DNA from: Tubiluchus corallicola
Taxonomy: Eukaryota; Animalia; Priapulida
DNA length: 37,242 nucleotides
Direction: 5' to 3'
NCBI GenBank assembly: GCA_030141605.1
Contig: JAQGDQ010001509.1
Span: 1 to 37,242 of the forward strand
Below the pieces are notes generated by a model. It had not been told where the DNA came from, did no database searches, and worked only from the letters and a program-made list of their open reading frames with translations. The position numbers and the translations under genes were made by a program. Shown here in pieces: positions 12,484-37,242 of the stretch (positions are counted from its first letter, which is position 1; each line of letters begins with the position of its first letter).

Positions 12484-12847
12484 TGTTGTGTTTTGTTTCT
12501 CTCGGAAGGCTCGTAGAGAAAACCAGAAAAAACGCCGTCAAAATTAAACTAGTTTATTAAGCGAGAATTCTACAACACAAAAGTATGAAGGAACGAGAAA
12601 TGATTACACTAAACGTGAAAATCTGGAAAACATTTAAGTGTATCTGAAAATGTAAGTATTACGTCCGTGAGATCTGCGTGTGTCCTGTGTGCCCCCGTGT
12701 CAGCGTCCTGCTTCGCCTTATATAGTGCGCTGTAGAAACTTCCAGAAGTAATGTTCCAGAACATTCCAGACGGTAAGGCAGTCATTCCGACGGAACATTC
12801 TACGATGTTCTATGTAATTCTAATTGATGCCAGCGATCTCCACAACA
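12484..12847 (-). mobile_element. Solo LTR in TRIR intron 2, same family as 24512-24876
   Basis: tgttgt...acaaca termini, TATA box tatataagg on the minus strand, clear homology to 24512-24876. TSD degenerate (gcaac/gcact). Confidence 0.8.
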
Positions 12848-13105
12848 GCACTGACTGGTAGATGTAGCCATTTTAGCGGCAAGTCTTTGAAACGCATTTT
12901 GACGTCATTGCGTAAAGTTTGAAGAAAATTCGTAGTTCAATTCGTGTTTTTGGTGAATCGGTGGTGCATACTGGGATGACGATGCAGTGCTGTTTTACCA
13001 AGGGACGCAAATGTTTTAATTTATTAATAATTTTCTTTTCCAATTACGTCAGTCTTTCAAGCAAGTCAGCGTAAAATAACTAATATAATATATCTGGTAA
13101 AATGA

Positions 13106-13584
13106 CACTGACTCACTATCCCAGTGTGCACGACTGACTCACTATCCCAGTGTGCACCACTGACTCACTATCCCAGTGTGCACCTCTGACTCACTATCCC
13201 AGTGTGCACCTCTGACTCACTATCCTAGTGTGCACCACTGACTCACTATCCCAGTGTGCACGACTGACTCGCTATCCCAGTGTGCACGACTGGCTCGCAA
13301 TCCCAGTGTGCACGAGTGACTCGCTATCCCAGTGTGCACGACTGACTCACTATCCCAGTGTGCACGTCTGACTCGCTATCCCAGTGTGCACGACTGACTC
13401 ACTATCCCAGTGTGCACCTCTGACTCACCATCCCAGTGTGCACCTGTGACTCACTATCCCAGTGTGCACCACTGATTCACTATCCCAGTGTGCACCTCCG
13501 GCTCACTATCCCAGTGTGCATGACTGACTCACTATCCCAATGTGCACGACTGGCTCACTATCCCAATGTGCATGACTGGCTCAC
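13106..13584. repeat. 26-bp minisatellite, ~18 copies
   Basis: Unit tgactcactatcccagtgtgcacgac. Confidence 0.95.
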
Positions 13585-13757
13585 CAAAAACACATTATTC
13601 ATCTTATTGACAGTGTAAAGTAGCTTAAACAGTTACTTAGTCAGTGAAGAGTGTGCTAAAGATACCTTCAAAGTTCTCGCAATGTTATCTAAACTTATTT
13701 CAAACGACTTACCGTTAAAAAGCCTGCGCCTAGCGGGTGTTTAAAATTACCACTGTA

Positions 13758-13758
<1 letters not shown>

Positions 13759-13817
<59 letters not shown>
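13759..13817. repeat. (TA)n microsatellite
   Basis: About 29 TA units; the mirror copy at 36012-36074 is 4 nt longer. Confidence 0.97.
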
Positions 13818-13820
<3 letters not shown>

Positions 13821-13958
13821 TATTATATAACTTCCAATAAGTAATATAACTTTGTATTGAAAGTTCTTTAGGATGTACTTTAGGATTCTCTTTTCTTCCT
13901 ATTTAAATACTCATTTGCTCTAAAGAAAACTAAATTTAACTAAGTTTGATTTTATATG

Positions 13959-14630
13959 CAGTAGTCGCCACTTAATAGACTCATTTTAGGACCGAAGTGC
14001 TTTGAACCAATTAACCGACTGACCCTATTAACCGATGGGTGTAGTATTACAGGTACAGAAGTATGAGTCACCAGCTTAGTGTGCATTGCAAATGTTTTTA
14101 ATGAATTTTAGAAACGAAGTAATGCCTAAATTCCTTTGCGTGGGTAAAATTTTTAGAAAAAAATATATTTTAAAATATTAATTTATACCAATGAATTAGC
14201 AATACATTAAAAAGTAATAGGCAAGGTAGTAAGTGATTAAATGTTTGGCTTCCATAATTCTTTGGGTAACGAGGCTAATTGCAGTGGACGAGCAGGTAAC
14301 TGATTCAAAGCAAAACTGCTACACTAGCGTATTAGTCATGATAAACGACATGCTTACAACAAAACGGTACTTACATGATTGTTTCTGCATGCATAGTTCA
14401 CAGAAGCGAAGTAAAGATGACATAAAACTAGGAAAGGCTCTTTGGGCACATACAAATGTCTTATTTTAAGTGGGTGAAGGAAAAATATTGAGTCAATTAT
14501 GCGGAGTTATTTGAATGAACTACCGATAGTTTTTATGTACATTTGAATAGAAGCGGCCCGTACCAGGCATTTTCGAGTCAATTGAGCAATTGAGTCTATT
14601 AACCGTGAGTCTATTAATCACCGCCTACTG
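13959..14630. mobile_element. Tc1/mariner-pogo-like MITE (TRIR intron 2)
   Basis: Imperfect TIRs cagtagtcgccacttaatagactc / gagtctattaatcaccgcctactg. TA on the right flank, TG on the left. Subterminal attaaccg repeats. Confidence 0.7.
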
Positions 14631-14699
14631 TATACTGAACTGCAATATATAACTTTCCAAAACCTGATGCTTGATCCTAAGATGTACATTTTGTTTAAG

Positions 14700-14801
14700 G
14701 CATCTACAAAAGAACCATGGGCACAGTACTTGAGTGAAGTGAAGAAATACAGAAATCAAATATGCAGCGAGGATGATAGCAACCGACCGCTGGTCAAGTG
14801 A
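14700..14801 (+). CDS. TRIR: TRIR exon 3 (terminal); spliced product 182 aa
   Basis: ttttgtttaag|GCA...TGA. Encodes ASTKEPWAQYLSEVKKYRNQICSEDDSNRPLVK* (human DAWAKYMAEVKKYKAHQCGDDDKTRPLVK*). Confidence 0.93.
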   Translation, partial: ASTKEPWAQYLSEVKKYRNQICSEDDSNRPLVK

Positions 14802-15460
14802 ATGTAAAATTGACGTGTAATAGAATTTATTAGATTAACTGACGTCATAAAATGTACAAAAAAATGTTGATTACGTATACTTCACATAATTAATGTAGAG
14901 CAAATCTTTGTGGTTTAGCGCGCAACGTAAATTTTATGAATTGTGTATATTAATGCAGTACAGTACTGATAAATTTGCAGACTAAAATTTGTTATTGTTA
15001 ACAGTTCTTTGAAACATTTTCTGCTCTTCAGTTAAAATGGGCATTGTTGGAGAAGAATGAATGTGAATGAACTATCATCCTATCAGTAAGTAATGTAATG
15101 ACTCCCAAGAAGATTTCCCATGTCTCTCAAACAACTGTAAAAAGCTAAGACTTGATTTCACTTTGACAACACTCTCAACTAATGTAGTATCAATGATATA
15201 AGTGCTAATTTAATATCTGTAATTTCTAATATCACTAGTTTACTAATTGTATTACTACATAATGCAAGATCACTAAGGTTCTTATTCTGACTCGTCTTTG
15301 ATTGCCTTTCTTTGATGGAGCAGAAAATGGAACTTTTAATGTGGATTTCAAAAACCTGTTAAAAAAATATATTAAAAAATTCTGTTAGTTTTTTTGTACA
15401 ATCTTAAACTAGTAAGTAATTGTCCACATTTATCTTGCATAATCAAAACTCTGCACTAAA

Positions 15461-15539
15461 TTTTAGCTGTTGATATGTTTCAGTAGATGGGGTATGTGGG
15501 GTATGTACCCCATCTACTGAAACATATCAACAGCTAAAA
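15461..15539. repeat. Perfect hairpin: 34-bp stem, 11-nt loop
   Basis: ttttagctgttgatatgtttcagtagatggggta - tgtggggtatg - taccccatctactgaaacatatcaacagctaaaa. Confidence 0.95.
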
Positions 15540-16180
15540 CATACATACCGTATGTGACTTTTTACCACTTGAGCAGTGAACTTACCAATTTTTCTATTTG
15601 CAAACACTGGTAAAGAAAGAAATTTTTCGTGAAAGCAGGGCTTCGAAACGTAAAAAAAACTTTTGTTATGCCAGGTGTTCGTTACAGAAATTACCGGTTG
15701 CACATTCCCAAAACCGCCATGTTTGTACATTCACATAAAAATCATTGTAGACACAAAATACTGCTGTCGCAACACAATTGGTAATTTGATTTTTGCAATT
15801 TTGGATATATTGTGCATTATGATGTTATAAATAAAGTGTGTATGCCTTCATAAACAACTGACGTCATGTTTATTGTACACAGCACTGTCAATCATGATAA
15901 ACATTAGTATAACAATACCATAGATATGGTTTATGTAGATCAAAGATCTCGGTGATTGCTTAGGAGTGTTCTGCATTCTAGACTCTTGCTGTTCTGATCT
16001 TTGTTTAAGTTCCTAATTAGTTTAATAAATACGACTTTATTATGCACGCATTCGCCTGTTTGCTAATATTATTATAGAGTGTAACAACTAGTATATGCAC
16101 TTGTGTATATTCATTTTTATTTAGACAACAGAGAGAAATAAATTGGAAAAGTTCATATAAATATAACATGCCGATTTCTG

Positions 16181-16398
16181 ACCAGATGTCTCAGACTTGC
16201 ACAAAAGTTAATGTTACATCAAGACCAGATGTTTCAGACTTGCACAAAAATTAATGTTACATCAAGACCAGATGTTTCAGACTTGCACAAAAGTTAATGT
16301 TACAGCAAGACCAGATGTCTCAGACTTGCACAAAAGTTAATGTTACATCAATACCAGATGTTTCAGACTTGCACAAAAGTTGATGTTACATCAATACC
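16181..16398. repeat. 43-bp minisatellite, 5 copies
   Basis: Unit accagatgt(c/t)tcagacttgcacaaaagttaatgttacatcaag. Confidence 0.93.
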
Positions 16399-16724
16399 CA
16401 TATGTGTTATAATTACCCATACAGCCATGATCAATTAACATGAAAAGTGGAAAAAACTGTCTGTAACCTAATGTTACTCAACTATATCAACAAAGGCTGC
16501 TTTTAGGTATTAAAATAATAAACAATACATGAGAAAGAAATGTTTGGTCCTCAAAAAGACTTTTCAAGACAAATAAAACTAGATTAAACATTAGAGAACT
16601 TGATTAAATGAGAAAATTAAATATGAGATAAACAGGAATGCAACATTAACATTATCATAATTAACACGCACCACTTTAATTAATTTTCTGATAAGTTGAC
16701 AACATACCAGTTAACAACTGTATA

Positions 16725-17178
16725 CAGTGGCGGATTTAGGGGGTGGTCCCAAGAGGACAGCCCCCCCTTTCGTAGTAGCAGTTACAGCACGCCAAGTGAA
16801 TGTTTCTCTGGATTATAAGCTTTAGAACGTTTAGTGGCAGCTTTTAATGACTTATATCGAGTAAAAAGTTCTGCATTAATGATTTTAGTGTAAAAGCGTT
16901 TGTGCCCTTTAAGTGATAATTGAAGTTTTAGGCAAAGATGTCGCTGTGCGCAATTATATGCTATACTAGTATGTATGCTAGTATATTGGTGTGTAATTAA
17001 GAGTCAAAAGTTTGAGGTGACATAATGAGTTTTAAACTATTGAATTTGCTCGAGGAAACAGTAAGAAAAATGTTCTAAAATTCAGTAAAATACATTGGTA
17101 GCCGGCTGGGGTTCCCCAGACCCCCTAGCCGCTTTTTCGTTGGACCCACCCTTTTTCTGGAGCCTGTATCCGCCACTG
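16725..17178. mobile_element. MITE with CAGTGGCGGAT TIRs (hAT-like)
   Basis: cagtggcggat...atccgccactg with G/C-run subterminal motifs. Only gtata is shared by the flanks; no clean 8-bp TSD. Confidence 0.75.
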
Positions 17179-17849
17179 GTATATGATACATCCACGTTAA
17201 CAAAAGCAAAATCATGTCATTTCATTTCCTTGACGAATAAAAGCAATCTCTGTAACACTGATTTGTACTCACCAAATGTCTAGACCTTTAAAATAGAGCC
17301 TACACCTTTGAAAGTATTAATTATGCTAGTACTACATAATAAAAATCATTATGATTTGCAATTTGGAATATACCTCATGGTTTATGACTATCATATTATG
17401 AACATACACAGAATTCGAGTAACTTATTAATTGCAGTTTTAATAAGCTGCTGCATGTAAAATTAAATAAGCTATATTTACAATCCGTACATAAGTAAACA
17501 TAAATTATTTACAGCGGTGGGATGCTGGTTCCCAATCTTATTTGGTCCATAGCCCAATGCACAAAAAACAAAAGTTCTTTTATCAGATTGTGTGGCCCAC
17601 ATGGTATATGTCTATGGCGAGGGCTCACTGATCTACATTGTATATTGCATACTAACCCTTGAAGCAAAGGCAACCTGTTACTTTTGGTTTTTATCAGTTT
17701 TTCTCATGAACTTCTGTTACAAAAACACTGTTTCTAATGAACATGTTTCTACTAAACGCTTGGACATTTTACAATCTGTCACAATCTTCAGCTCAAACGA
17801 TCTTCACACGAAAATGTCAACCTATACTCATGATAATTTCTTTCAAGTG

Positions 17850-18346
17850 AAATTCTCTGCAGGACTCCATGATTTGTCACAAATTCTCTGCTGGACTCCA
17901 TGATTTGTTACAAATTCTCTGCACGACTCCATGATTTGTTACAAATTCTCTGCAGTACTCCATGATTTGTCACAAATTCTCTGCAGGACTCCATGATTTG
18001 TCACAAATTCTCTGCAGGACTCCATGATTTGTTACAAATTCTCTGCAGGACTCCATGATTTGTCACAAATTCTCTGCTGGACTCCATGATTTGTTACAAA
18101 TTCTCTGCACGACTCCATGATTTGTTACAAATTCTCTGCAGTACTCCATGATTTGTCACAAATTCTCTGCAGGACTCCATGATTTGTCACAAATTCTCTG
18201 CACGACTCCATGATTTGTTACAAATTCTCTGCAGGACTCCATGATTTGTTACAAATTCTCTGCAGGACTCTATGATTTGTTACAAATTCTCTGCAGGACT
18301 CCATGATTTGTTACAAATTCTCTGCAGGACTCCATGATTTGTCACA
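17850..18346. repeat. 31-bp minisatellite, ~16 copies
   Basis: Unit aaattctctgcaggactccatgatttgt(c/t)ac. Confidence 0.95.
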
Positions 18347-18400
18347 TCAGTTACTCACTGACATTAAAATATTTTGCACATTACACTTCTACATGTAATA

Positions 18401-19031
18401 TGTGTGCTTGCAAACCAAAACCATTCATAAGTCGGTATAGTTAAAACTACGTTCTGATGCTTTAAAGTAGAATGCACCAAAATTTTGGCCTAATGTTACT
18501 TTTTCATTTTTTTATGAAGACAAATGGAAAATATATTGGAATGTTATATTCTAGCATAAAATTATCAAGAAAATGTTCAAAAAATAATAAAAATTTAATT
18601 TTATAACGCCATGCTCACTTCTCTGTTTACAAAGTAGTACTGCAATTGCAAGAAAGGCTGTCATTTAGCTTAGGGTTTTTTCTGTTGTCAAGCCCAAATT
18701 TTCACCAGGAAGAGCCATCTACTGGATTTAAACGTAACTTCAATGTGTTCTTACAAAATGGTTCTCACACTTTGCTAGTGCTGTTGCTAAGTGTTTTGTA
18801 GAAACGCGACACAAAACAATGGCTGACTTTAACAGCGATTTTCTCAAGATTATGTTTTTCACTGCATAGACTGCACCTCAACTTCAATGTGGATTATCTC
18901 AGCTTAGAAATAACATAGAGTGTTGAAGTTATTATCAAAATGATCCTCATGAAATGGATTTTCAGGACTTGTGAATAACTGCAGAAGTCAAAACTGCCGA
19001 CTTATGGACGATTTTGTTATGCAAGCGCACA
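18401..19031. mobile_element. TA-flanked MITE (Tc1/mariner-like) just 3' of the GAL3ST stop codon
   Basis: TA|tgtgtgcttgcaaaccaaaaccattcataagtcgg ... ccgacttatggacgattttgttatgcaagcgcaca|TA; ~35-bp imperfect TIRs. Confidence 0.72.
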
Positions 19032-19093
19032 TATAAACTGTGTAAGCTGCAAAGATAGAGATTCGATGTTAACATCTAGAGATTCAGAGCTGA

Positions 19094-20192
19094 TTAAACA
19101 GTAAAAGTTCTGTTTGGCCAAAGTTTACGTTTGAGTTCAGTTGTGAATGGCAACTCAGCTTTGGCAAGATCAATACAAATTGTATCATTGGACTTCAGTT
19201 TAAAGTTGTAGACATCCGGAGACCAGCTTTTCAACTTCGTGTTCTGTATTTCGTCCTTAGTTACCATGTTGCTAACACAATGATCGTAAACTTCTTGTGT
19301 TTTATTATGCAGAGCGGCTAAATCATCAGCCATCCGTTCTTTCCCAAATTCCTCAATCTTCTTAAAAAATATTTCCTTGAATGTTGAGTAAAGTTTCATA
19401 TCTGCGCTACTCCACGATTCTATCAAATGTCGTTGTTCTTCAGTTAACTGAGTTTTTTTGCCAGGAAACCTGGCATTCACTTTGAAGACGACAACGTCAA
19501 TCCAATCCCAACACAGCAAATCTCTCAACAGAACTAGGGACTCGTCAAAATATTCTGCAATCATAATCAAGTCAAATTCGTTCTTTATTGAATTAATTTT
19601 CTCTTCGATTCGCCTCTCGTTATCGAAATGTTCAAAGTCCAAGCCGAAATCAAACATCATGGTATTTCTTCCCGGTGGCGTAGCGCGCGGAGCTTTGTCG
19701 AAGTACATCCGAGGGTTCCGAATGTAAGTGTCGAAATCCGTCCCGTAACGTTTGTCATACTTGGAGAACGAGTAAAACGATTCGAGCAGATCCGCAGGAT
19801 GTCGTACGATTGACACAAACTTGGCTTTGGGCATAACAGATCGAATAGTCTCTGGATTGTATCTCGTGTGATGACAAAAGATATTGTACTCTCCACGCGG
19901 GTGTTCCATCATCATAGTGCGAAAAAACTTGCGAAAGAAACCCAGGTAATTACCCCAAGAGGGTAAGACAAAAGTCAGATTATTATACTTTCCGTATCTC
20001 ATGAAGATATTCTGCAGACTACTACTGGCACACTTGTGAGTTTTGAGAAAGAAGATGTCATGCACGGGTTTGCACGTACGTTCCGCAGACATAAAACTAT
20101 GGTTACTCTGGCTGCTATTATTGAACGCATCTGGATGATTTTTCAACATCAAGTAACGAACTTCCGCCGTGAGAGTCGGTCGATAGACAAAA
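19094..20192 (-). CDS. GAL3ST: Galactose-3-O-sulfotransferase family (GAL3ST / cerebroside sulfotransferase-like), copy A, catalytic exon
   Basis: 5'-PSB motif FLKTHKCASSSL, 3'-PB motif IVRHPADLLESFY, and family motifs NTMMFDFG and FDLIMIAEYFDESLVLLRDLLCW. Acceptor ttttgcttttgcag; phase 2 matches the upstream exon. Confidence 0.93.
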
Positions 20193-20357
20193 CTGCAAAA
20201 GCAAAACGGCAACAGAGATCAGAAACTGCACACTGAGTTATTTAAATTATGAATGGTTTTTCAAATTTTAATTCTTAATATAAAGTTAATAGAAGAAAAT
20301 ATCTGTGCTACAATAATGATATTATGTTGAAGATGTTTACAATAATGTAAATAAACT

Positions 20358-20620
20358 ATAATAATAATAATAATCTTTATTTAATGTCGGCTTTTGGATC
20401 AACAATTAACATTAGCTCAAAGAGCTATTATCACCGACTGTAAATAACCAACAACTAGATAACAGAGACCATTATTACCCCACTTTTACCCTAAATACCA
20501 CGCGTCAGGCAGGGCAACAGCAGGTAGCATTTTTAGAGTCTTTGGTATTACCCGGCCGCTGGTTCGAACTCACGACCTCCCAGAAGGAAAGCAGACGCAT
20601 TACCACTAGACTAAGCCGTC
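20358..20620 (-). mobile_element. tRNA-derived SINE in the GAL3ST intron (copy A)
   Basis: Mirror of 29207-29472: A box, B box, core and (TTA)n tail. Confidence 0.82.
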
Positions 20621-20867
20621 TATACACATGATGTTAGTGTATTAAACTTTGGACAGTATTTATTTTCGAACATTTTGTACAAATGTTTTTTGTACTACGT
20701 TAAATCTAAACAATTATACCCTAAAAGCTTTTGTACAAAACCACTTGCCAAATATATTAAATAGACTTACATGAGTGAGACTGATTTTCCAGTTTTTTGT
20801 AATTTTTAACTCACTCTTCATATTTCTTACCTAATTTACAATTGCATTTTGCTAATATGTTCACATA

Positions 20868-21060
20868 ACAGTGGGCTTATACAAGCCTTTGCTTCTCTAG
20901 CCCACTGCAGTACAATTATTCTTTTATGATAACGATAGTGCATGAAACATAACAATTTAATACAGTATGACGTAATAATTTTGATGTCACTGTGTGCTTA
21001 ATGTCAGCATATTGTACTGAATGCGATAATAATAAACAAAACTAAATGAAACTAAAAAAA
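20868..21060 (+). mobile_element. Possible LINE (CR1/L2-group) 3' end remnant
   Basis: Stem-loop cagtgggct-tatacaagcctttgcttctct-agcccactg followed by aataaa and an A-rich tail. Family assignment is from general resemblance only. Mirrored near 28767-28959. Confidence 0.3.
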
Positions 21061-21285
21061 GTAAACAGGACTTTTTAACGGTCCAGATTTTGTTTGATTT
21101 TTGCGATATCCGTAAAAATGAGGCCTGGTAAACCCAGATATGAGTTTACAGTGAAATTTACTTGTATTTAATATCACATTCCCTTTAGTTACTACATTCA
21201 CGCAAAAATAAAACGAAAGCTTTGACTCAAGCCATGGAAAGTTGGCAAATTTAGAATCTTGCTACTGCACAACGGCTGTGTTTAA

Positions 21286-22447
21286 TCTATCAGTACCATA
21301 CCAGATCACCAGCTGCAGCTGACTGCAAGGTGAACTCTACCAGTACCATGCCAGATCACCAGCTGCAGCTGACTGCAAGATGAACTCTACCGGTACCATA
21401 CCAGATCACCAGCTGCAGCTGACTGCAAGGTGAACTCTACCGGTACCATACCAGATCACCAGCTGCAGCTGACTGCAAGGTGAACTCTACCGGTACCACA
21501 CCAGATCACCAGCTGCAGCTGACTGCAAGGTGAACTCTACCGGTACCACACCAGATCACCAGCTGCAGCTGACTGCAAGGTGAACTCTACCGGTACCACA
21601 CCAGATCACCAGCTGCAGCTGACTGCAAGGTGAATTCTACCGGTACCATACCAGATCACCAGCTGCAGCTGACTGCAAGGTGAACTCTACCGGTATCATA
21701 CCAGATCACCAGCGGCAGCTGACTGCAAGGTGAACTCTACCGGTACCACACCAGATCACCAGCGGCAGCTGACAGCAAGGTGAACTCTACCAGTACCATA
21801 CCAGATCACCAGCTGCAGCAGACTGCAAGGTGAACTCTACCAGTACCATACCAGATCACCAGCTGCAGCTGACTGCAAGGTGAACTCTACCAGTACCACA
21901 CCCGAACACCAGCTGCAGCTGACTGCAAGGTGAACTCTATCAGTACCATACCAGATCACCAGCTGCAGCTGACTGCAAGGTGAACTCTACCAGTACCATG
22001 CCAGATCACCAGCTGCAGCTGACTGCAAGGTGAACTCTACCAGTACCATGCCAGATCACCAGCTGCAGCTGACTGCAAGGTGAACTCTACCAGTACCATG
22101 CCAGATCACCAGCTGCAGCTGACTGCAAGGTGAACTCTACCAGTACCATACCAGATCACCAGCTGCAGCTGACTGCAAGGTGAACTCTACCAGTACCATA
22201 CCAGATCACCAGCTGCAGCTGACTGCAAGGTGAACTCTACCAGTACCACACCCGAACACCAGCTGCAGCTGACTGCAAGGTGAACTCTACCAGCACCATA
22301 CCCGAACACCAGCTGCAGCTGACTGCAAGGTGAACTCTACCAGTACCATACCAGATCACCAGCTGCAGCTGACTGCAAGGTGAACTCTACCAGTACCATA
22401 CCAGATCACCAGCTGCAGCTGACTGCAAGATGAACTCTACCAGTACC
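21286..22447. repeat. 50-bp intronic minisatellite, ~23 copies
   Basis: Unit taccagtaccataccagatcaccagctgcagctgactgcaaggtgaactc. Confidence 0.96.
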
Positions 22448-22507
22448 TACTCTCAGCTTCACGATTCGGTTACGACGTAAGTATGAGACAGCGAGTACTG
22501 CACTTAC

Positions 22508-22617
22508 CTCTCAGACCGCTGGGTTATCCAACCTCTTCTAACCCAAAGAAGGTAAGATAAAGCAGAAACAATGACCAAAATGAATAAGCTGAAGTAGGAA
22601 GACTTTATTGTTTTCAT
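22508..22617 (-). CDS. GAL3ST: GAL3ST copy A, N-terminal transmembrane exon (exon acceptor at 22640)
   Basis: MKTIKSSYFSLFILVIVSALSYLLWVRRGWITQRSE + AG|gtaagt: a type II Golgi membrane anchor. Splices in frame to 20192, giving 402 aa from this ATG. Confidence 0.87.
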
Positions 22618-27209: not shown

Positions 27210-27319
27210 ATGAAAACAATAAAGTCTTCCTACTTCAGCTTATTCATTTTGGTCATTGTTTCTGCTTTATCTTACCTTCTTTGGGTTAGAAGAGGTTGGA
27301 TAACCCAGCGGTCTGAGAG
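27210..27319 (+). CDS. GAL3ST: GAL3ST copy B, N-terminal transmembrane exon (acceptor ttttag| at 27186)
   Basis: ATG at 27210, same peptide as copy A; donor AG|gtaagt, phase 2. Confidence 0.85.
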
Positions 27320-27379
27320 GTAAGTGCAGTACTCGCTGTCTCATACTTACGTCGTAACCGAATCGTGAAGCTGAGAGTA

Positions 27380-28541
27380 GGTACTGGTAGAGTTCATCTT
27401 GCAGTCAGCTGCAGCTGGTGATCTGGTATGGTACTGGTAGAGTTCACCTTGCAGTCAGCTGCAGCTGGTGATCTGGTATGGTACTGGTAGAGTTCACCTT
27501 GCAGTCAGCTGCAGCTGGTGTTCGGGTATGGTGCTGGTAGAGTTCACCTTGCAGTCAGCTGCAGCTGGTGTTCGGGTGTGGTACTGGTAGAGTTCACCTT
27601 GCAGTCAGCTGCAGCTGGTGATCTGGTATGGTACTGGTAGAGTTCACCTTGCAGTCAGCTGCAGCTGGTGATCTGGTATGGTACTGGTAGAGTTCACCTT
27701 GCAGTCAGCTGCAGCTGGTGATCTGGCATGGTACTGGTAGAGTTCACCTTGCAGTCAGCTGCAGCTGGTGATCTGGCATGGTACTGGTAGAGTTCACCTT
27801 GCAGTCAGCTGCAGCTGGTGATCTGGCATGGTACTGGTAGAGTTCACCTTGCAGTCAGCTGCAGCTGGTGATCTGGTATGGTACTGATAGAGTTCACCTT
27901 GCAGTCAGCTGCAGCTGGTGTTCGGGTGTGGTACTGGTAGAGTTCACCTTGCAGTCAGCTGCAGCTGGTGATCTGGTATGGTACTGGTAGAGTTCACCTT
28001 GCAGTCTGCTGCAGCTGGTGATCTGGTATGGTACTGGTAGAGTTCACCTTGCTGTCAGCTGCCGCTGGTGATCTGGTGTGGTACCGGTAGAGTTCACCTT
28101 GCAGTCAGCTGCCGCTGGTGATCTGGTATGATACCGGTAGAGTTCACCTTGCAGTCAGCTGCAGCTGGTGATCTGGTATGGTACCGGTAGAATTCACCTT
28201 GCAGTCAGCTGCAGCTGGTGATCTGGTGTGGTACCGGTAGAGTTCACCTTGCAGTCAGCTGCAGCTGGTGATCTGGTGTGGTACCGGTAGAGTTCACCTT
28301 GCAGTCAGCTGCAGCTGGTGATCTGGTGTGGTACCGGTAGAGTTCACCTTGCAGTCAGCTGCAGCTGGTGATCTGGTATGGTACCGGTAGAGTTCACCTT
28401 GCAGTCAGCTGCAGCTGGTGATCTGGTATGGTACCGGTAGAGTTCATCTTGCAGTCAGCTGCAGCTGGTGATCTGGCATGGTACTGGTAGAGTTCACCTT
28501 GCAGTCAGCTGCAGCTGGTGATCTGGTATGGTACTGATAGA
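27380..28541. repeat. 50-bp minisatellite, mirror copy
   Basis: Reverse complement of 21286-22447 with the same order of variant units. Confidence 0.96.
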
Positions 28542-29206
28542 TTAAACACAGCCGTTGTGCAGTAGCAAGATTCTAAATTTGCCAACTTTCCATGGCTTGA
28601 GTCAAAGCTTTCGTTTTATTTTTGCGTGAATGTAGTAACTAAAGGGAATGTGATATTAAATACAAGTAAATTTCACTGTAAACTCATATCTGGGTTTACC
28701 AGGCCTCATTTTTACGGATATCGCAAAAATCAAACAAAATCTGGACCGTTAAAAAGTCCTGTTTACTTTTTTTAGTTTCATTTAGTTTTGTTTATTATTA
28801 TCGCATTCAGTACAATATGCTGACATTAAGCACACAGTGACATCAAAATTATTACGTCATACTGTATTAAATTGTTATGTTTCATGCACTATCGTTATCA
28901 TAAAAGAATAATTGTACTGCAGTGGGCTAGAGAAGCAAAGGCTTGTATAAGCCCACTGTTATGTGAACATATTAGCAAAATGCAATTGTAAATTAGGTAA
29001 GAAATATGAAGAGTGAGTTAAAAATTACAAAAAACTGGAAAATCAGTCTCACTCATGTAAGTCTATTTAATATATTTGGCAAGTGGTTTTGTACAAAAGC
29101 TTTTAGGGTATAATTGTTTAGATTTAACGTAGTACAAAAAACATTTGTACAAAATGTTCGAAAATAAATACTGTCCAAAGTTTAATACACTAACATCATG
29201 TGTATA

Positions 29207-29472
29207 GACGGCTTAGTCTAGTGGTAATGCGTCTGCTTTCCTTCTGGGAGGTCGTGAGTTCGAACCAGCGGCCGGGTAATACCAAAGACTCTAAAAATGC
29301 TACCTGCTGTTGCCCTGCCTGACGCGTGGTATTTAGGGTAAAAGTGGGGTAATAATGGTCTCTGTTATGTAGTTGTAGGTTGTTATTTACAGTCGGCGAT
29401 AATAGCTCTATGAGTTAATGTTAATTGTTGACCCAAAAGCCAACTTTAAATAAAGATTATTATTATTATTAT
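29207..29472 (+). mobile_element. tRNA-derived SINE in the GAL3ST intron (copy B)
   Basis: A box tagtctagtgg, B box gagttcgaacc, core taccaaagactctaaaaatgctacctgctg (reminiscent of Meta-domain SINEs, unverified), aataaa and (TTA)n tail. Confidence 0.82.
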
Positions 29473-29637
29473 AGTTTATTTACATTATTGTAAACATCTT
29501 CAACATAATATCATTATTGTAGCACAGATATTTTCTTCTATTAACTTTATATTAAGAATTAAAATTTGAAAAACCATTCATAATTTAAATAACTCAGTGT
29601 GCAGTTTCTGATCTCTGTTGCCGTTTTGCTTTTGCAG

Positions 29638-30736
29638 TTTTGTCTATCGACCGACTCTCACGGCGGAAGTTCGTTACTTGATGTTGAAAAATCATCCAGA
29701 TGCGTTCAATAATAGCAGCCAGAGTAACCATAGTTTTATGTCTGCGGAACGTACGTGCAAACCCGTGCATGACATCTTCTTTCTCAAAACTCACAAGTGT
29801 GCCAGTAGTAGTCTGCAGAATATCTTCATGAGATACGGAAAGTATAATAATCTGACTTTTGTCTTACCCTCTTGGGGTAATTACCTGGGTTTCTTTCGCA
29901 AGTTTTTTCGCACTATGATGATGGAACACCCGCGTGGAGAGTACAATATCTTTTGTCATCACACGAGATACAATCCAGAGACTATTCGATCTGTTATGCC
30001 CAAAGCCAAGTTTGTGTCAATCGTACGACATCCTGCGGATCTGCTCGAATCGTTTTACTCGTTCTCCAAGTATGACAAACGTTACGGGACGGATTTCGAC
30101 ACTTACATTCGGAACCCTCGGATGTACTTCGACAAAGCTCCGCGCGCTACGCCACCGGGAAGAAATACCATGATGTTTGATTTCGGCTTGGACTTTGAAC
30201 ATTTCGATAACGAGAGGCGAATCGAAGAGAAAATTAATTCAATAAAGAACGAATTTGACTTGATTATGATTGCAGAATATTTTGACGAGTCCCTAGTTCT
30301 GTTGAGAGATTTGCTGTGTTGGGATTGGATTGACGTTGTCGTCTTCAAAGTGAATGCCAGGTTTCCTGGCAAAAAAACTCAGTTAACTGAAGAACAACGA
30401 CATTTGATAGAATCGTGGAGTAGCGCAGATATGAAACTTTACTCAACATTCAAGGAAATATTTTTTAAGAAGATTGAGGAATTTGGGAAAGAACGGATGG
30501 CTGATGATTTAGCCGCTCTGCATAATAAAACACAAGAAGTTTACGATCATTGTGTTAGCAACATGGTAACTAAGGACGAAATACAGAACACGAAGTTGAA
30601 AAGCTGGTCTCCGGATGTCTACAACTTTAAACTGAAGTCCAATGATACAATTTGTATTGATCTTGCCAAAGCTGAGTTGCCATTCACAACTGAACTCAAA
30701 CGTAAACTTTGGCCAAACAGAACTTTTACTGTTTAA
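29638..30736 (+). CDS. GAL3ST: Galactose-3-O-sulfotransferase family, copy B, catalytic exon
   Basis: Protein identical to copy A in the ORF track. Acceptor ttttgcag at 29637; AG+T = Ser restores the frame; 110+1099 nt = 402 aa plus stop. Confidence 0.93.
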
Positions 30737-30798
30737 TCAGCTCTGAATCTCTAGATGTTAACATCGAATCTCTATCTTTGCAGCTTACACAGTTTATA

Positions 30799-31428
30799 TG
30801 TGCGCTTGCATAACAAAATCGTCCATAAGTCGGCAATTAATGTTTTCTAGTTATTCACGTATTCTGAATCTCCATTTCATGAGGATCATTTTGATAATAA
30901 CTTCAACACTCTATGTTATTTCTAAGCTGAGATAATCCACATTGAAGTTGAGGTGCAGTCTATGCAGTGAAAAACATAATCTTGAGAAAATCGCTGTTAA
31001 AGTCAGCCATTGTTTTGTGTCGCGTTTCTACAAAACACTTAGCAACAGCACTAGCAAAGTGTGAGAACCATTTTGTAAGAACACATTGAAGTTACGTTTA
31101 AATCCAGTAGATGGCTCTTCCTGGTGAAAATTTGGGCTTGACAACAGAAAAAACCCTAAGCTAAATGACAGCCTTTCTTGCAATTGCAGTACTACTTTGT
31201 AAACAGAGAAGTGAGCATGGCGTTATAAAATTAAATTTTTATTATTTTTTGAACATTTTCTTGATAATTTTATGCTAGAATATAACATTCCAATATATTT
31301 TCCATTTGTCTTCATAAAAAAATGAAAAAGTAACATTAGGCCAAAATTTTGGTGCATTCTACTTTAAAGCATCAGAACGTAGTTTTAACTATACCGACTT
31401 ATGAATGGTTTTGGTTTGCAAGCACACA
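30799..31428. mobile_element. TA-flanked MITE, mirror of 18401-19031
   Basis: Same TIRs and TA flanks. Confidence 0.72.
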
Positions 31429-31482
31429 TATTACATGTAGAAGTGTAATGTGCAAAATATTTTAATGTCAGTGAGTAACTGA

Positions 31483-31979
31483 TGTGACAAATCATGGAGT
31501 CCTGCAGAGAATTTGTAACAAATCATGGAGTCCTGCAGAGAATTTGTAACAAATCATAGAGTCCTGCAGAGAATTTGTAACAAATCATGGAGTCCTGCAG
31601 AGAATTTGTAACAAATCATGGAGTCGTGCAGAGAATTTGTGACAAATCATGGAGTCCTGCAGAGAATTTGTGACAAATCATGGAGTACTGCAGAGAATTT
31701 GTAACAAATCATGGAGTCGTGCAGAGAATTTGTAACAAATCATGGAGTCCAGCAGAGAATTTGTGACAAATCATGGAGTCCTGCAGAGAATTTGTAACAA
31801 ATCATGGAGTCCTGCAGAGAATTTGTGACAAATCATGGAGTCCTGCAGAGAATTTGTGACAAATCATGGAGTACTGCAGAGAATTTGTAACAAATCATGG
31901 AGTCGTGCAGAGAATTTGTAACAAATCATGGAGTCCAGCAGAGAATTTGTGACAAATCATGGAGTCCTGCAGAGAATTT
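31483..31979. repeat. 31-bp minisatellite, mirror copy
   Basis: Reverse complement of 17850-18346. Confidence 0.95.
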
Positions 31980-32650
31980 CACTTGAAAGAAATTATCATG
32001 AGTATAGGTTGACATTTTCGTGTGAAGATCGTTTGAGCTGAAGATTGTGACAGATTGTAAAATGTCCAAGCGTTTAGTAGAAACATGTTCATTAGAAACA
32101 GTGTTTTTGTAACAGAAGTTCATGAGAAAAACTGATAAAAACCAAAAGTAACAGGTTGCCTTTGCTTCAAGGGTTAGTATGCAATATACAATGTAGATCA
32201 GTGAGCCCTCGCCATAGACATATACCATGTGGGCCACACAATCTGATAAAAGAACTTTTGTTTTTTGTGCATTGGGCTATGGACCAAATAAGATTGGGAA
32301 CCAGCATCCCACCGCTGTAAATAATTTATGTTTACTTATGTACGGATTGTAAATATAGCTTATTTAATTTTACATGCAGCAGCTTATTAAAACTGCAATT
32401 AATAAGTTACTCGAATTCTGTGTATGTTCATAATATGATAGTCATAAACCATGAGGTATATTCCAAATTGCAAATCATAATGATTTTTATTATGTAGTAC
32501 TAGCATAATTAATACTTTCAAAGGTGTAGGCTCTATTTTAAAGGTCTAGACATTTGGTGAGTACAAATCAGTGTTACAGAGATTGCTTTTATTCGTCAAG
32601 GAAATGAAATGACATGATTTTGCTTTTGTTAACGTGGATGTATCATATAC

Positions 32651-33104
32651 CAGTGGCGGATACAGGCTCCAGAAAAAGGGTGGGTCCAACGAAAAAGCGG
32701 CTAGGGGGTCTGGGGAACCCCAGCCGGCTACCAATGTATTTTACTGAATTTTAGAACATTTTTCTTACTGTTTCCTCGAGCAAATTCAATAGTTTAAAAC
32801 TCATTATGTCACCTCAAACTTTTGACTCTTAACTACACACCAATATACTAGCATACATCCTAGTATAGCATATAATTGCGCACAGCGACATCTTTGCCTA
32901 AAACTTCAATTATCACTTAAAGGGCACAAACGCTTTTACACTAAAATCATTAATGCAGAACTTTTTACTCGATATAAGTCATTAAAAGCTGCCACTAAAC
33001 GTTCTAAAGCTTATAATCCAGAGAAACATTCACTTGGCGTGCTGTAACTGCTACTACGAAAGGGGGGGCTGTCCTCTTGGGACCACCCCCTAAATCCGCC
33101 ACTG
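32651..33104. mobile_element. CAGTGGCGGAT MITE, mirror of 16725-17178
   Basis: Same TIRs. Confidence 0.75.
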
Positions 33105-33430
33105 TATACAGTTGTTAACTGGTATGTTGTCAACTTATCAGAAAATTAATTAAAGTGGTGCGTGTTAATTATGATAATGTTAATGTTGCATTCCTGTTTA
33201 TCTCATATTTAATTTTCTCATTTAATCAAGTTCTCTAATGTTTAATCTAGTTTTATTTGTCTTGAAAAGTCTTTTTGAGGACCAAACATTTCTTTCTCAT
33301 GTATTGTTTATTATTTTAATACCTAAAAGCAGCCTTTGTTGATATAGTTGAGTAACATTAGGTTACAGACAGTTTTTTCCACTTTTCATGTTAATTGATC
33401 ATGGCTGTATGGGTAATTATAACACATATG

Positions 33431-33648
33431 GGTATTGATGTAACATCAACTTTTGTGCAAGTCTGAAACATCTGGTATTGATGTAACATTAACTTTTGTG
33501 CAAGTCTGAGACATCTGGTCTTGCTGTAACATTAACTTTTGTGCAAGTCTGAAACATCTGGTCTTGATGTAACATTAATTTTTGTGCAAGTCTGAAACAT
33601 CTGGTCTTGATGTAACATTAACTTTTGTGCAAGTCTGAGACATCTGGT
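33431..33648. repeat. 43-bp minisatellite, mirror copy
   Basis: Reverse complement of 16181-16398. Confidence 0.93.
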
Positions 33649-34289
33649 CAGAAATCGGCATGTTATATTTATATGAACTTTTCCAATTTATTTCTCTCTG
33701 TTGTCTAAATAAAAATGAATATACACAAGTGCATATACTAGTTGTTACACTCTATAATAATATTAGCAAACAGGCGAATGCGTGCATAATAAAGTCGTAT
33801 TTATTAAACTAATTAGGAACTTAAACAAAGATCAGAACAGCAAGAGTCTAGAATGCAGAACACTCCTAAGCAATCACCGAGATCTTTGATCTACATAAAC
33901 CATATCTATGGTATTGTTATACTAATGTTTATCATGATTGACAGTGCTGTGTACAATAAACATGACGTCAGTTGTTTATGAAGGCATACACACTTTATTT
34001 ATAACATCATAATGCACAATATATCCAAAATTGCAAAAATCAAATTACCAATTGTGTTGCGACAGCAGTATTTTGTGTCTACAATGATTTTTATGTGAAT
34101 GTACAAACATGGCGGTTTTGGGAATGTGCAACCGGTAATTTCTGTAACGAACACCTGGCATAACAAAAGTTTTTTTTACGTTTCGAAGCCCTGCTTTCAC
34201 GAAAAATTTCTTTCTTTACCAGTGTTTGCAAATAGAAAAATTGGTAAGTTCACTGCTCAAGTGGTAAAAAGTCACATACGGTATGTATG

Positions 34290-34368
34290 TTTTAGCTGTT
34301 GATATGTTTCAGTAGATGGGGTACATACCCCACATACCCCATCTACTGAAACATATCAACAGCTAAAA
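34290..34368. repeat. Perfect 34-bp hairpin, mirror copy
   Basis: Reverse complement of 15461-15539. Confidence 0.95.
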
Positions 34369-35027
34369 TTTAGTGCAGAGTTTTGATTATGCAAGATAAA
34401 TGTGGACAATTACTTACTAGTTTAAGATTGTACAAAAAAACTAACAGAATTTTTTAATATATTTTTTTAACAGGTTTTTGAAATCCACATTAAAAGTTCC
34501 ATTTTCTGCTCCATCAAAGAAAGGCAATCAAAGACGAGTCAGAATAAGAACCTTAGTGATCTTGCATTATGTAGTAATACAATTAGTAAACTAGTGATAT
34601 TAGAAATTACAGATATTAAATTAGCACTTATATCATTGATACTACATTAGTTGAGAGTGTTGTCAAAGTGAAATCAAGTCTTAGCTTTTTACAGTTGTTT
34701 GAGAGACATGGGAAATCTTCTTGGGAGTCATTACATTACTTACTGATAGGATGATAGTTCATTCACATTCATTCTTCTCCAACAATGCCCATTTTAACTG
34801 AAGAGCAGAAAATGTTTCAAAGAACTGTTAACAATAACAAATTTTAGTCTGCAAATTTATCAGTACTGTACTGCATTAATATACACAATTCATAAAATTT
34901 ACGTTGCGCGCTAAACCACAAAGATTTGCTCTACATTAATTATGTGAAGTATACGTAATCAACATTTTTTTGTACATTTTATGACGTCAGTTAATCTAAT
35001 AAATTCTATTACACGTCAATTTTACAT

Positions 35028-35129
35028 TCACTTGACCAGCGGTCGGTTGCTATCATCCTCGCTGCATATTTGATTTCTGTATTTCTTCACTTCACTCAAG
35101 TACTGTGCCCATGGTTCTTTTGTAGATGC
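35028..35129 (-). CDS. TRIR: Duplicate TRIR terminal exon (exons 1-2 would lie beyond the window, if duplicated)
   Basis: Exact reverse complement of 14700-14801 with the acceptor intact. Confidence 0.8.
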   Translation of the reverse strand, partial: ASTKEPWAQYLSEVKKYRNQICSEDDSNRPLVK

Positions 35130-35198
35130 CTTAAACAAAATGTACATCTTAGGATCAAGCATCAGGTTTTGGAAAGTTATATATTGCAGTTCAGTATA

Positions 35199-35870
35199 CA
35201 GTAGGCGGTGATTAATAGACTCACGGTTAATAGACTCAATTGCTCAATTGACTCGAAAATGCCTGGTACGGGCCGCTTCTATTCAAATGTACATAAAAAC
35301 TATCGGTAGTTCATTCAAATAACTCCGCATAATTGACTCAATATTTTTCCTTCACCCACTTAAAATAAGACATTTGTATGTGCCCAAAGAGCCTTTCCTA
35401 GTTTTATGTCATCTTTACTTCGCTTCTGTGAACTATGCATGCAGAAACAATCATGTAAGTACCGTTTTGTTGTAAGCATGTCGTTTATCATGACTAATAC
35501 GCTAGTGTAGCAGTTTTGCTTTGAATCAGTTACCTGCTCGTCCACTGCAATTAGCCTCGTTACCCAAAGAATTATGGAAGCCAAACATTTAATCACTTAC
35601 TACCTTGCCTATTACTTTTTAATGTATTGCTAATTCATTGGTATAAATTAATATTTTAAAATATATTTTTTTCTAAAAATTTTACCCACGCAAAGGAATT
35701 TAGGCATTACTTCGTTTCTAAAATTCATTAAAAACATTTGCAATGCACACTAAGCTGGTGACTCATACTTCTGTACCTGTAATACTACACCCATCGGTTA
35801 ATAGGGTCAGTCGGTTAATTGGTTCAAAGCACTTCGGTCCTAAAATGAGTCTATTAAGTGGCGACTACTG
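35199..35870. mobile_element. pogo-like MITE, mirror of 13959-14630
   Basis: Same TIRs. Confidence 0.7.
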
Positions 35871-36008
35871 CATATAAAATCAAACTTAGTTAAATTTAGT
35901 TTTCTTTAGAGCAAATGAGTATTTAAATAGGAAGAAAAGAGAATCCTAAAGTACATCCTAAAGAACTTTCAATACAAAGTTATATTACTTATTGGAAGTT
36001 ATATAATA

Positions 36009-36011
<3 letters not shown>

Positions 36012-36074
<63 letters not shown>
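36012..36074. repeat. (TA)n microsatellite, mirror copy
   Basis: About 31 units. Confidence 0.97.
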
Positions 36075-36075
<1 letters not shown>

Positions 36076-36248
36076 TACAGTGGTAATTTTAAACACCCGC
36101 TAGGCGCAGGCTTTTTAACGGTAAGTCGTTTGAAATAAGTTTAGATAACATTGCGAGAACTTTGAAGGTATCTTTAGCACACTCTTCACTGACTAAGTAA
36201 CTGTTTAAGCTACTTTACACTGTCAATAAGATGAATAATGTGTTTTTG

Positions 36249-36727
36249 GTGAGCCAGTCATGCACATTGGGATAGTGAGCCAGTCGTGCACATTGGGATA
36301 GTGAGTCAGTCATGCACACTGGGATAGTGAGCCGGAGGTGCACACTGGGATAGTGAATCAGTGGTGCACACTGGGATAGTGAGTCACAGGTGCACACTGG
36401 GATGGTGAGTCAGAGGTGCACACTGGGATAGTGAGTCAGTCGTGCACACTGGGATAGCGAGTCAGACGTGCACACTGGGATAGTGAGTCAGTCGTGCACA
36501 CTGGGATAGCGAGTCACTCGTGCACACTGGGATTGCGAGCCAGTCGTGCACACTGGGATAGCGAGTCAGTCGTGCACACTGGGATAGTGAGTCAGTGGTG
36601 CACACTAGGATAGTGAGTCAGAGGTGCACACTGGGATAGTGAGTCAGAGGTGCACACTGGGATAGTGAGTCAGTGGTGCACACTGGGATAGTGAGTCAGT
36701 CGTGCACACTGGGATAGTGAGTCAGTG
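36249..36727. repeat. 26-bp minisatellite, mirror copy
   Basis: Reverse complement of 13106-13584. Confidence 0.95.
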
Positions 36728-36985
36728 TCATTTTACCAGATATATTATATTAGTTATTTTACGCTGACTTGCTTGAAAGACTGACGTAATTGGAAAAGAA
36801 AATTATTAATAAATTAAAACATTTGCGTCCCTTGGTAAAACAGCACTGCATCGTCATCCCAGTATGCACCACCGATTCACCAAAAACACGAATTGAACTA
36901 CGAATTTTCTTCAAACTTTACGCAATGACGTCAAAATGCGTTTCAAAGACTTGCCGCTAAAATGGCTACATCTACCAGTCAGTGC

Positions 36986-37242
36986 TGTTGTGGAGATCGC
37001 TGGCATCAATTAGAATTACATAGAACATCGTAGAATGTTCCGTCGGAATGACTGCCTTACCGTCTGGAATGTTCTGGAACATTACTTCTGGAAGTTTCTA
37101 CAGCGCACTATATAAGGCGAAGCAGGACGCTGACACGGGGGCACACAGGACACACGCAGATCTCACGGACGTAATACTTACATTTTCAGATACACTTAAA
37201 TGTTTTCCAGATTTTCACGTTTAGTGTAATCATTTCTCGTTC
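36986..37242 (+). mobile_element. Solo LTR, mirror of 12484-12847, truncated by the window end
   Basis: Starts tgttgtggagatcgc; contains tatataagg. Confidence 0.8.

What the first reader, a model, noticed from the sequence alone, without database searches (positions are those of the whole stretch)
12591..37242. Giant near-perfect palindrome (arms >=10.2 kb) placing two identical GAL3ST genes head-to-head
Seen: layout TRIR exon 3 -> <- GAL3ST | 4.2-kb centre | GAL3ST -> <- TRIR exon 3. The proteins are identical, and even fast-mutating minisatellites keep the same copy number and variant order. Known: gene-bearing palindromes arise by fold-back amplification and can be homogenised by arm-to-arm gene conversion, as on the primate Y. 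Inference: a very recent inverted duplication raising sulfotransferase dosage, an actively converted palindrome, or a fold-back/mis-assembly artefact. The asymmetric, structured centre argues against a simple hairpin-read artefact.
Basis: partly seen in the sequence, partly recalled or inferred. Interest (0 to 1): 0.8.

Follow-up and report, generated by a model that had tools for sequence, protein, structure and literature searches.

The report
Mirror-image gene copy: likely assembly artefact
The assembled DNA shows a 10-kb mirror-image copy of a sulfotransferase gene, but the deepest sequencing run that carries this same sequence shows two ordinary alleles at equal depth and continues differently at the mirror point, so the second copy is likely a fold-back error of amplification, sequencing or assembly, not a real duplication.

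Summary
The palindrome is in the sequence: arms 12591-22824 and 27003-37242 are 99.71% identical and carry the same 402-aa GAL3ST reading frame. It is probably not in the animal. The true mirror centre is a 288-bp loop (25813-26100), not 4.2 kb: 26101-27000 is a degraded (87%) reverse copy of 24883-25812, and the right half lacks a 2,058-bp block. Short-read contigs of two runs of one sample fit the loop up to 26107 and then leave the window's sequence, at a 7-bp inverted microhomology. In the deep run X1, two heterozygous sites inside the arm give window:other allele 122:97 and 106:111, near the per-allele depth of the centre (85:95), not 2:1. Against: in the shallow run X2 long arm contigs are 2.1 times as deep as centre contigs; no raw or long reads were seen; the sample is not shown to be the assembled animal. 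Verdict: fold-back chimera, about 0.8; a real fold-back duplication about 0.17 in all. The gene is an ordinary GAL3ST, nearest named hit Priapulus caudatus (63%). The scan noted a similar unconfirmed palindrome in another genome (e1-9510050).

The parts
12591..22824 (+). Left arm A; likely the real locus (its outer limit is set by the window end of the other arm)
   Evidence: joined to the rest of the upstream gene by intact splicing; contigs of X1 and X2 fit it, several with 0 differences
27003..37242 (-). Right arm A', reverse copy of A at 99.71%; likely the artefactual second copy
   Evidence: depth argument
19094..22617 (-). GAL3ST gene, left copy: coding exons 22617-22508 (start codon, hydrophobic helix) and 20192-19094
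   Evidence: Pfam PF06990 229 bits against a cut-off of 27; GT-AG splice sites and hydropathy 2.22 over 19 residues
27210..30736 (+). GAL3ST gene, right copy: coding exons 27210-27319 and 29638-30736, identical coding sequence
9605..14801 (+).
   Evidence: splice sites; name recalled, no Pfam family
35028..35129 (-). Mirror copy of that exon 3
22825..24882 (.). 2,058-bp block present only in the left half: 63-bp minisatellite (to 24035), low-copy stretch X (24036-24511), LTR-like high-copy repeat (24512-24876); the same 9-bp word ATGCAAACA stands at both ends
   Evidence: X, its join to the minisatellite and the LTR-to-B join are covered by X1 contigs at depth 117-174
24883..25812 (.). B: low-copy flank (24883-25258) plus a high-copy LINE-like remnant (label recalled; no Pfam support)
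   Evidence: X1 contig of 547 nt at depth 165 runs from the LTR-like repeat into B
25813..26100 (.). 288-bp loop, the real mirror centre
   Evidence: covered with 0 substitutions by X1 record 6 and X2 record 13
26101..26107 (.). Fold point: 7-bp microhomology AAACAGA with the reverse complement of 25806-25812; contigs of two runs stop fitting at 26107
26101..27000 (-). B', degraded reverse copy of B (77 substitutions, 26 indel events)
27000..27003 (.). Second junction: B' joined straight to the arm, skipping the 2,058-bp block, with 2-3 extra bases
18959..18994 (.). Arm difference island 1 (about 7 substitutions and 3 gaps), inside a very high-copy repeat
20385..20458 (.). Arm difference island 2 (8 substitutions, 1 gap), inside a SINE-like high-copy repeat; the right arm has the family-majority letter at both sites listed

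Best explanation
The window likely holds one real GAL3ST locus followed by a false mirror copy, made when a DNA strand likely folded back at 26101-26107 during amplification or library preparation and the chimeric molecule was likely assembled as if it were chromosome. Shown: the mirror, its 288-bp loop, the 7-bp microhomology, the point where short-read contigs leave the window, and 1:1 allele depths inside the arm in run X1. Inferred: a displaced 3' end primed on the 7-bp complement 288 bases back and copied B and then A in reverse; a second jump at a 9-bp microhomology, or bases missed by the sequencer after the turn, lost the 2,058-bp block; few reads supported B', so it stayed noisy and picked up letters of other repeat copies; ordinary reads of the one locus fit either arm and made both arms the same accurate sequence, leaving differences only inside repeats. 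Which step made the chimera (whole-genome amplification, library or sequencer) is not known from any call.
For: (1) X1 record 6 (326 nt, depth 151.5) fits 25831-26107 with 0 differences and runs on for 49 letters that do not fit; X2 record 13 (383 nt, 5.24) stops at the same base and runs on for 107. B' begins at 26101, so the overlap is a 7-bp microhomology with a 288-bp loop, the form reported for amplification chimeras: inversion with an intervening deletion, 2-21 nt of complementarity, segments under 10 kb apart (PMC1855051, abstract and Results). (2) Two heterozygous bubbles in the arm, where both arms read the same: X1 window allele 121.5 against other allele 96.7, and 105.9 against 111.0. 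The centre bubble gives 84.7 (by subtraction) against 94.9. 2:1 is rejected at p=7e-4 and 7e-8 if depths are taken as counts; the likelihood ratio is 10^1.6 with counts cut five-fold. On 7 clean contig depths a single-copy model beats three palindrome models by 10^3.4-10^6.6 at 15% noise and 10^1.2-10^2.4 at 25%. X1 long contigs: arm median 144 (n=4), centre median 165 (n=7), ratio 0.87. (3) X1 record 3 (547 nt, depth 165) is one sequence that joins the LTR-like repeat to B, has B' letters at 24995, 25006 and 25024, and B letters from 25053 on; B and B' share only 28 identical bases there, too few for a 31-letter-word assembler to splice two copies, so B and B' look like two imperfect renderings of one locus. 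(4) At 13 of the 20 listed sites in B where contigs show another letter, B' has that letter (6 have B's, 1 neither). (5) No arm difference in 1,876 bases of low-copy arm; both islands lie in repeats with summed depth 1e5-1e6, and the right arm has the family-majority letter at 20450 and 20458. (6) Palindromic reads are common in amplified DNA of small animals and promote misassembly (PMC13265396, passages); nanopore reads miscall and skip bases after an inverted junction (PMC7229812, Results).
Against: In X2 (same sample, about 20 times shallower) long arm contigs have median depth 10.8 (n=4) and centre contigs 5.1 (n=4), ratio 2.1, as a real duplication predicts; its first bubble is 9.24:4.38, its second 5.43:6.06, and its clean depths do not tell the models apart (likelihood ratios 10^-0.01 to 10^0.2). 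In X4 (another sample) two arm contigs are at 9.7 and 11.2 and two centre contigs at 2 and 3. 127 nt of B' (26302-26428) exist letter for letter in X1 at depth 233.8; they lie in a high-copy repeat and I could not place them. All runs are assembled contigs: they drop minority branches, their depth is one figure per contig, and the tool warns that depth is no copy number. X1-X3 are one sample, which carries the window's letters but is not shown to be the assembled animal. That all 4 difference clusters lie in repeats is weak alone, since repeats are abundant here. Whether the assembly came from amplified DNA is unknown.
Confidence: 0.8

Rival explanations
1. A real, very recent fold-back duplication (replication template switch or break-induced), private to the assembled animal, to one haplotype or to some cells; B' and the missing block would be errors of sequencing a real hairpin-prone junction.
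For: Microhomology and a short loop also mark biological inverted duplications (PMC10766183, abstract). Real inverted junctions give miscalled and missed bases in nanopore reads (PMC7229812 Results). X2 long contigs give arm:centre 2.1 and one bubble 2.1:1. Contigs drop rare variants, so a mosaic junction would be missed.
Against: X1 allele ratios 1.26 and 0.95 and centre depths up to 174, above the 156 (twice the fitted haploid depth of 78) that a one-haplotype palindrome allows. The loop contig leaves the window at depth 151.5, more than one haplotype's share.
Confidence: 0.12
2. An old real palindrome whose arms are kept identical by arm-to-arm gene conversion, while a 2-kb insertion or deletion shields the inner 930 bp, which have drifted to 87%; the islands would be patches that conversion missed.
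For: Long perfect blocks (1,168-3,211 bp) broken by dense islands, and a sharp fall of identity inside the 2-kb heterology. The arms meet the size and identity criteria used for primate palindromes (8 kb, 99%; PMC8327919 passages).
Against: Needs twice the centre's depth on the arms; X1 gives 1.1-1.2. The X1 contig over B mixes B and B' letters in a way two separate old copies cannot give. Contigs of two runs leave the window where B' starts.
Confidence: 0.05
3. The two arms are the two parental haplotypes joined head to head by the assembler.
For: The sample is strongly heterozygous and the arm differences come in clusters; three B' letters are found in an X1 contig.
Against: At both bubbles, where the alleles differ by 8 of 142 and 9 of 158 letters, the arms are identical. 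Both alleles of stretch X exist, so the missing block is not simply the other haplotype.
Confidence: 0.03

Closest known systems
Inverted chimeras of multiple displacement amplification (PMC1855051: abstract and Results read; PMC13265396: 12 passages read)
   Same: Inversion with an intervening gap, short complementarity at the join (7 nt; reported range 2-21), segments well under 10 kb apart (288 bp), a second jump as in multi-segment palindromic reads.
   Different: No chimeric read was seen, and it is not known that this assembly came from amplified DNA. Here the product is a polished 10-kb arm in an assembly, not a single read.
Nanopore base-calling failure after inverted junctions (PMC7229812: abstract and Results read)
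   Same: The sequence after the turn is miscalled and shorter than the sequence before it (B' at 87%, 2,058 bp missing).
   Different: That effect also hits real inverted duplications, so it does not decide between real and false; the platform behind this window is unknown.
Gene-bearing palindromes of mammalian X and Y chromosomes (PMC8327919: 12 passages read; 10.1101/800185: search listing only)
   Same: Arms over 8 kb at over 99% identity, with a gene copy in each arm, head to head.
   Different: Those are physically duplicated and shared between individuals and species. Here the deep run gives single-copy depth and the loop continues into other sequence.
ODIRA and other biological fold-back inversions (PMC10766183: abstract only)
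   Same: Turn at a short inverted repeat with a short loop.
   Different: They raise copy number; X1 shows no rise. The second junction of a triplication cannot be seen because the window ends.
Galactose-3-O-sulfotransferases (Pfam PF06990)
   Same: 229 bits over profile positions 57-398, N-terminal hydrophobic helix, conserved blocks in an alignment of 8.
   Different: Nothing unusual found; nearest named relative is a Priapulus caudatus protein at 63% identity.

Membership tests
Gene-conversion palindrome (primate X/Y type) | Arms of at least 8 kb at 99% identity or more | tested here: met
   10.2 kb at 99.71%; criterion from PMC8327919 passages
Gene-conversion palindrome (primate X/Y type) | Two physical copies: arm depth above spacer depth | tested here: not met
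   X1: arm/centre 1.1-1.2 on allele sums, 0.87 on long contigs; allele ratios near 1:1. X2 (shallow) gives 2.1 on long contigs and is undecided on clean depths.
Gene-conversion palindrome (primate X/Y type) | Spacer continuous with both arms | tested here: not met
   Contigs of X1 and X2 leave the window's sequence at 26107; contigs can drop a minority branch
Gene-conversion palindrome (primate X/Y type) | Shared by other individuals or species; sex-chromosome location | not testable with these tools
   No genome is held; the one other sample laid (X4) covers the locus in patches
Amplification-type inverted chimera | Inversion with an intervening gap, segments under 10 kb apart | tested here: met
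   288-bp loop; criterion PMC1855051
Amplification-type inverted chimera | 2-21 nt complementarity at the join | tested here: met
   7 nt, defined by where the contigs stop fitting; naive chance about 1e-4 for one junction
Amplification-type inverted chimera | No extra copy in bulk DNA | tested here: inconclusive
   Met in X1, not met on long contigs of X2; X1 is about 20 times deeper
Amplification-type inverted chimera | Junction carried by one or few molecules of an amplified library | not testable with these tools
   Only contigs were served; library not on record
Biological fold-back duplication (ODIRA/BFB type) | Short inverted repeat at the turn | tested here: met
   7 nt; a longer imperfect match inside the loop is not above chance (51 of 1,000 shuffles)
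Biological fold-back duplication (ODIRA/BFB type) | Raised copy number of the arm | tested here: not met
   X1; a mosaic or private event is not excluded
Two haplotypes fused by the assembler | Arms differ at heterozygous sites | tested here: not met
   Identical at 2 of 2 bubbles
Galactose-3-O-sulfotransferase (PF06990) | Profile score above the curated cut-off | tested here: met
   229.4 bits against 27, E 9.5e-68
Galactose-3-O-sulfotransferase (PF06990) | N-terminal membrane anchor and conserved PAPS-binding blocks | tested here: met
   Hydropathy 2.22 at residues 8-26; KTHKCASS block conserved in alignment A1; that this block binds PAPS is recalled
Galactose-3-O-sulfotransferase (PF06990) | Enzyme activity and substrate | not testable with these tools
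   none

The most novel reading that the evidence does not exclude
A real, old gene-bearing palindrome in a priapulid-like animal, with two GAL3ST copies held identical by arm-to-arm gene conversion that stops sharply at a 2-kb insertion, leaving the inner 930 bp to drift to 87%: a natural ruler for how a heterology blocks conversion, at a heterozygous locus far from mammalian sex chromosomes.
Probability: 0.05. Interest if true: 0.6.

Novelty: not a real feature. Interest (0 to 1): 0.12.

Why it matters
If the artefact reading holds, the practical point is that this assembly holds a false duplicate of GAL3ST, so gene counts and other near-perfect palindromes from it need a depth and junction check; the window is a clean worked example of how such a fold-back looks after polishing (short loop, microhomology, noisy inner mirror, perfect outer arms, islands in repeats), which mimics gene conversion. 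If the palindrome were real it would be a gene-bearing palindrome at a heterozygous locus in a little-studied animal group. No open question becomes newly testable under the likely reading.

Tried and rejected
Whole-genome check: no genome is held for this window, so I could not see whether the window is a whole contig, what lies beyond 37242, or how many such palindromes the assembly has. Holes in cover, which the tool says prove nothing: bins 26724-26947 (low-copy flank of B') had no depth in 4 of 4 runs, and no listed contig bridged 27000/27003 (tables were cut: 24 joints and 8,028 pieces not shown). No RNA holder was listed; no statement on expression follows. X3 covered only repeats and was not used. 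X4 covers the GAL3ST exon in patches (depth 0 to 11 by bin), so its arm:centre contrast was not modelled. A longer inverted match inside the loop was not above chance (51 of 1,000 shuffles). Pfam gave nothing for the three exons of the TRIR-like gene or for the LINE-like fragments, apart from one hit at E 0.24 below its cut-off. My first idea, an old palindrome with a conversion boundary (note), was dropped. Look-ups in earlier findings: nothing nearby; two unrelated notes on a caspase-STING gene in the same genome. I ran three paper searches for mechanisms only and make no claim about what is or is not in print for this locus; no supplements were read.
Full report
Observation. A self-comparison of the window shows 12591-22824 matching the reverse complement of 27003-37242 at 99.707% over 10,242 columns, with 20 mismatches and 4 gap openings. 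The right arm ends at the window's last base, inside an LTR-like repeat that also occurs at 24512-24876. Each arm holds the full coding sequence of a galactose-3-O-sulfotransferase in two exons; the two 1,209-nt sequences are identical (Pfam PF06990, 229 bits). 4 of 4 longer minisatellites are exact mirror images; the TA run differs by 4 bases. The nearest named protein among 122 hits is from Priapulus caudatus at 63%, so the animal is probably a priapulid or a relative (inference).

Anatomy of the centre. The 4.2-kb centre is not unique. B (24883-25812) and B' (26101-27000) are inverted copies at 86.7%, with 77 substitutions and 26 indel events; 11 of the indel events lie in the 376-bp low-copy flank. 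B' abuts the right arm at 27000/27003. So the whole structure mirrors about a 288-bp loop (25813-26100), and the right half lacks 2,058 bp (22825-24882) whose two ends carry the same 9-bp word. The 24 arm differences fall in 4 clusters where random placement gives 15.3 (0 of 20,000 draws gave 4 or fewer). From the sequence alone this could be an old palindrome under gene conversion, which was my first reading.

Read data. One run search with 24040-31450 listed 6 runs: X1-X3 of one sample, X4 of another, X5 and X6 with next to none of the words. All are assembled contigs. I laid X1-X4 on 24036-27379 and X1, X2, X4, X6 on 18347-21285. The X1-X3 sample carries the window's letters exactly in many contigs, so it may be the source sample and is not independent of it; I did not try to establish this.

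The fold point. X1 record 6 (326 nt, depth 151.5) fits 25831-26107 with no difference and runs on for 49 letters that do not fit; X2 record 13 (383 nt, depth 5.24) stops at the same base and runs on for 107. B' starts at 26101, so the real sequence and the mirror overlap by 7 bases. An inversion with a gap, short complementarity and segments under 10 kb apart is the commonest chimera of multiple displacement amplification (PMC1855051, abstract and Results). Biological fold-backs share this form (PMC10766183, abstract), so the form alone does not decide.

Copy number. Inside the arm there are two heterozygous bubbles at which both arms read the same. In X1 the window allele and the other allele have depths 121.5 and 96.7 at 19781-19922, and 105.9 and 111.0 at 21128-21284. 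A bubble in the low-copy centre gives 84.7 (179.6 minus 94.9) and 94.9. An arm contig without differences is at 197.4. A palindrome on the window haplotype predicts 2:1 in the arm; one on both haplotypes predicts twice the centre's depth. On these 7 depths the single-copy model wins over three palindrome models by 10^3.4 to 10^6.6 at 15% noise and by 10^1.2 to 10^2.4 at 25% noise. Long X1 contigs agree: arm median 144 (4 contigs), centre median 165 (7 contigs). Left out of those medians were the bubble contigs, contigs of other repeat copies, and the 127-nt contig on B'. The tool warns that contig depth is no copy number; the allele ratio within one bubble is the best-controlled figure.

One locus rendered twice. 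X1 record 3 (547 nt, depth 165.4, 6 other letters, no gap) runs from the LTR-like repeat into B and has the B' letter at 24995, 25006 and 25024. After 25024, B and B' share only 28 identical bases and the contig goes on with B letters. An assembler working with 31-letter words cannot switch between copies over 28 bases (inference), so this is one real sequence of which B and B' are both imperfect renderings. Over 25050-25267 an X2 contig equals B while B' differs at 25 places. Of the 20 listed sites in B where contigs show another letter (26 further rows of that table were not shown), B' has that letter at 13, B's at 6 and neither at 1, as if reads of other copies had been polished in. Both islands of arm difference lie in repeats with summed depths of 1e5-1e6; the right arm has the majority letter at the two island-2 sites that the table lists, 20450 and 20458. 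No difference lies in 1,876 low-copy bases; with only four clusters this is weak alone.

Results against. In X2, about 20 times shallower, long arm contigs have median depth 10.8 (4 contigs) and centre contigs 5.1 (4 contigs), a ratio of 2.1. Its bubbles are 9.24:4.38 and 5.43:6.06, and its clean depths do not separate the models. I cannot explain the X1/X2 difference; uneven or amplified coverage at low depth is a guess. In X4, arm contigs are at 9.7 and 11.2 and centre contigs at 2 and 3, but cover is patchy. A 127-nt piece of B' exists exactly in X1 at depth 233.8 and could be a real repeat copy here or elsewhere. Contigs drop minority branches, so a mosaic or private duplication would be missed. 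No raw or long read was seen.

Mechanism. Most likely (0.8) a strand folded back at the 7-bp complement, copied B and the arm in reverse, and lost the 2,058-bp block by a second jump or by skipped bases; nanopore reads are known to miscall and skip after an inverted junction (PMC7229812, Results), and palindromic reads from amplified DNA of small animals are common and promote misassembly (PMC13265396, passages). Ordinary reads of the single locus would fit either arm and make both accurate and identical, while B', cut off between two false junctions, stayed poor. These steps are inferred; platform and library are unknown. Rivals: a real recent fold-back, private or mosaic (0.12); an old converted palindrome (0.05); fused haplotypes (0.03, since the arms are identical at 2 of 2 heterozygous bubbles).

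Comparison and verdict. The arms meet the size and identity criteria used for primate sex-chromosome palindromes (PMC8327919, passages) but fail the physical test of copy number in the deep run and of continuity at the loop. The structure works like an amplification-type inverted chimera; membership cannot be closed without the reads. The gene is an ordinary GAL3ST. Novelty: not a real feature. Interest 0.12.

Noticed in passing
window 19117-19718 and 19899-20194 (run X6): Run X6, guessed to be RNA and under the same species label as X1, has contigs only 87-89% identical to the GAL3ST exon; one stops fitting at 20194, next to the predicted acceptor at 20192, and runs on for 85 letters, as a spliced transcript would. 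The divergence suggests a paralogue or a different species under the same label.
   Followed up: partly
window 19781-19922, 21128-21284, 24072-24175: The X1/X2 sample is strongly heterozygous: alleles differ at 8 of 142 and 9 of 158 letters, one bubble lying inside the GAL3ST coding exon.
   Followed up: partly
window 1-2822 and 3206-6395: Two long tandem arrays, 119 bp x 23.8 and 47 bp x 68.6. The window starts inside the first and ends inside an LTR-like repeat, as a short contig broken at repeats would.
   Followed up: no
window 7235-7613 and 10427-10863: Two inverted copies (85-95%) of a MITE-like element flank exon 1 of the TRIR-like gene.
   Followed up: no
window 15461-15539 (mirror 34290-34368): A 79-bp self-complementary hairpin, 88.6%.
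   Followed up: no
window 24399-24400: An X1 contig at depth 174 ends at 24399 and the next (24370-24525, into the LTR-like repeat) is at 117, about one haplotype's depth: the other haplotype may differ here or lack the LTR-like insertion.
   Followed up: partly
window 27165-27209: An acceptor-like site (T-rich run, AG) lies just upstream of the first coding exon of GAL3ST, so a 5' non-coding exon and the promoter probably lie further upstream, possibly beyond the fold point and so missing from this window.
   Followed up: no
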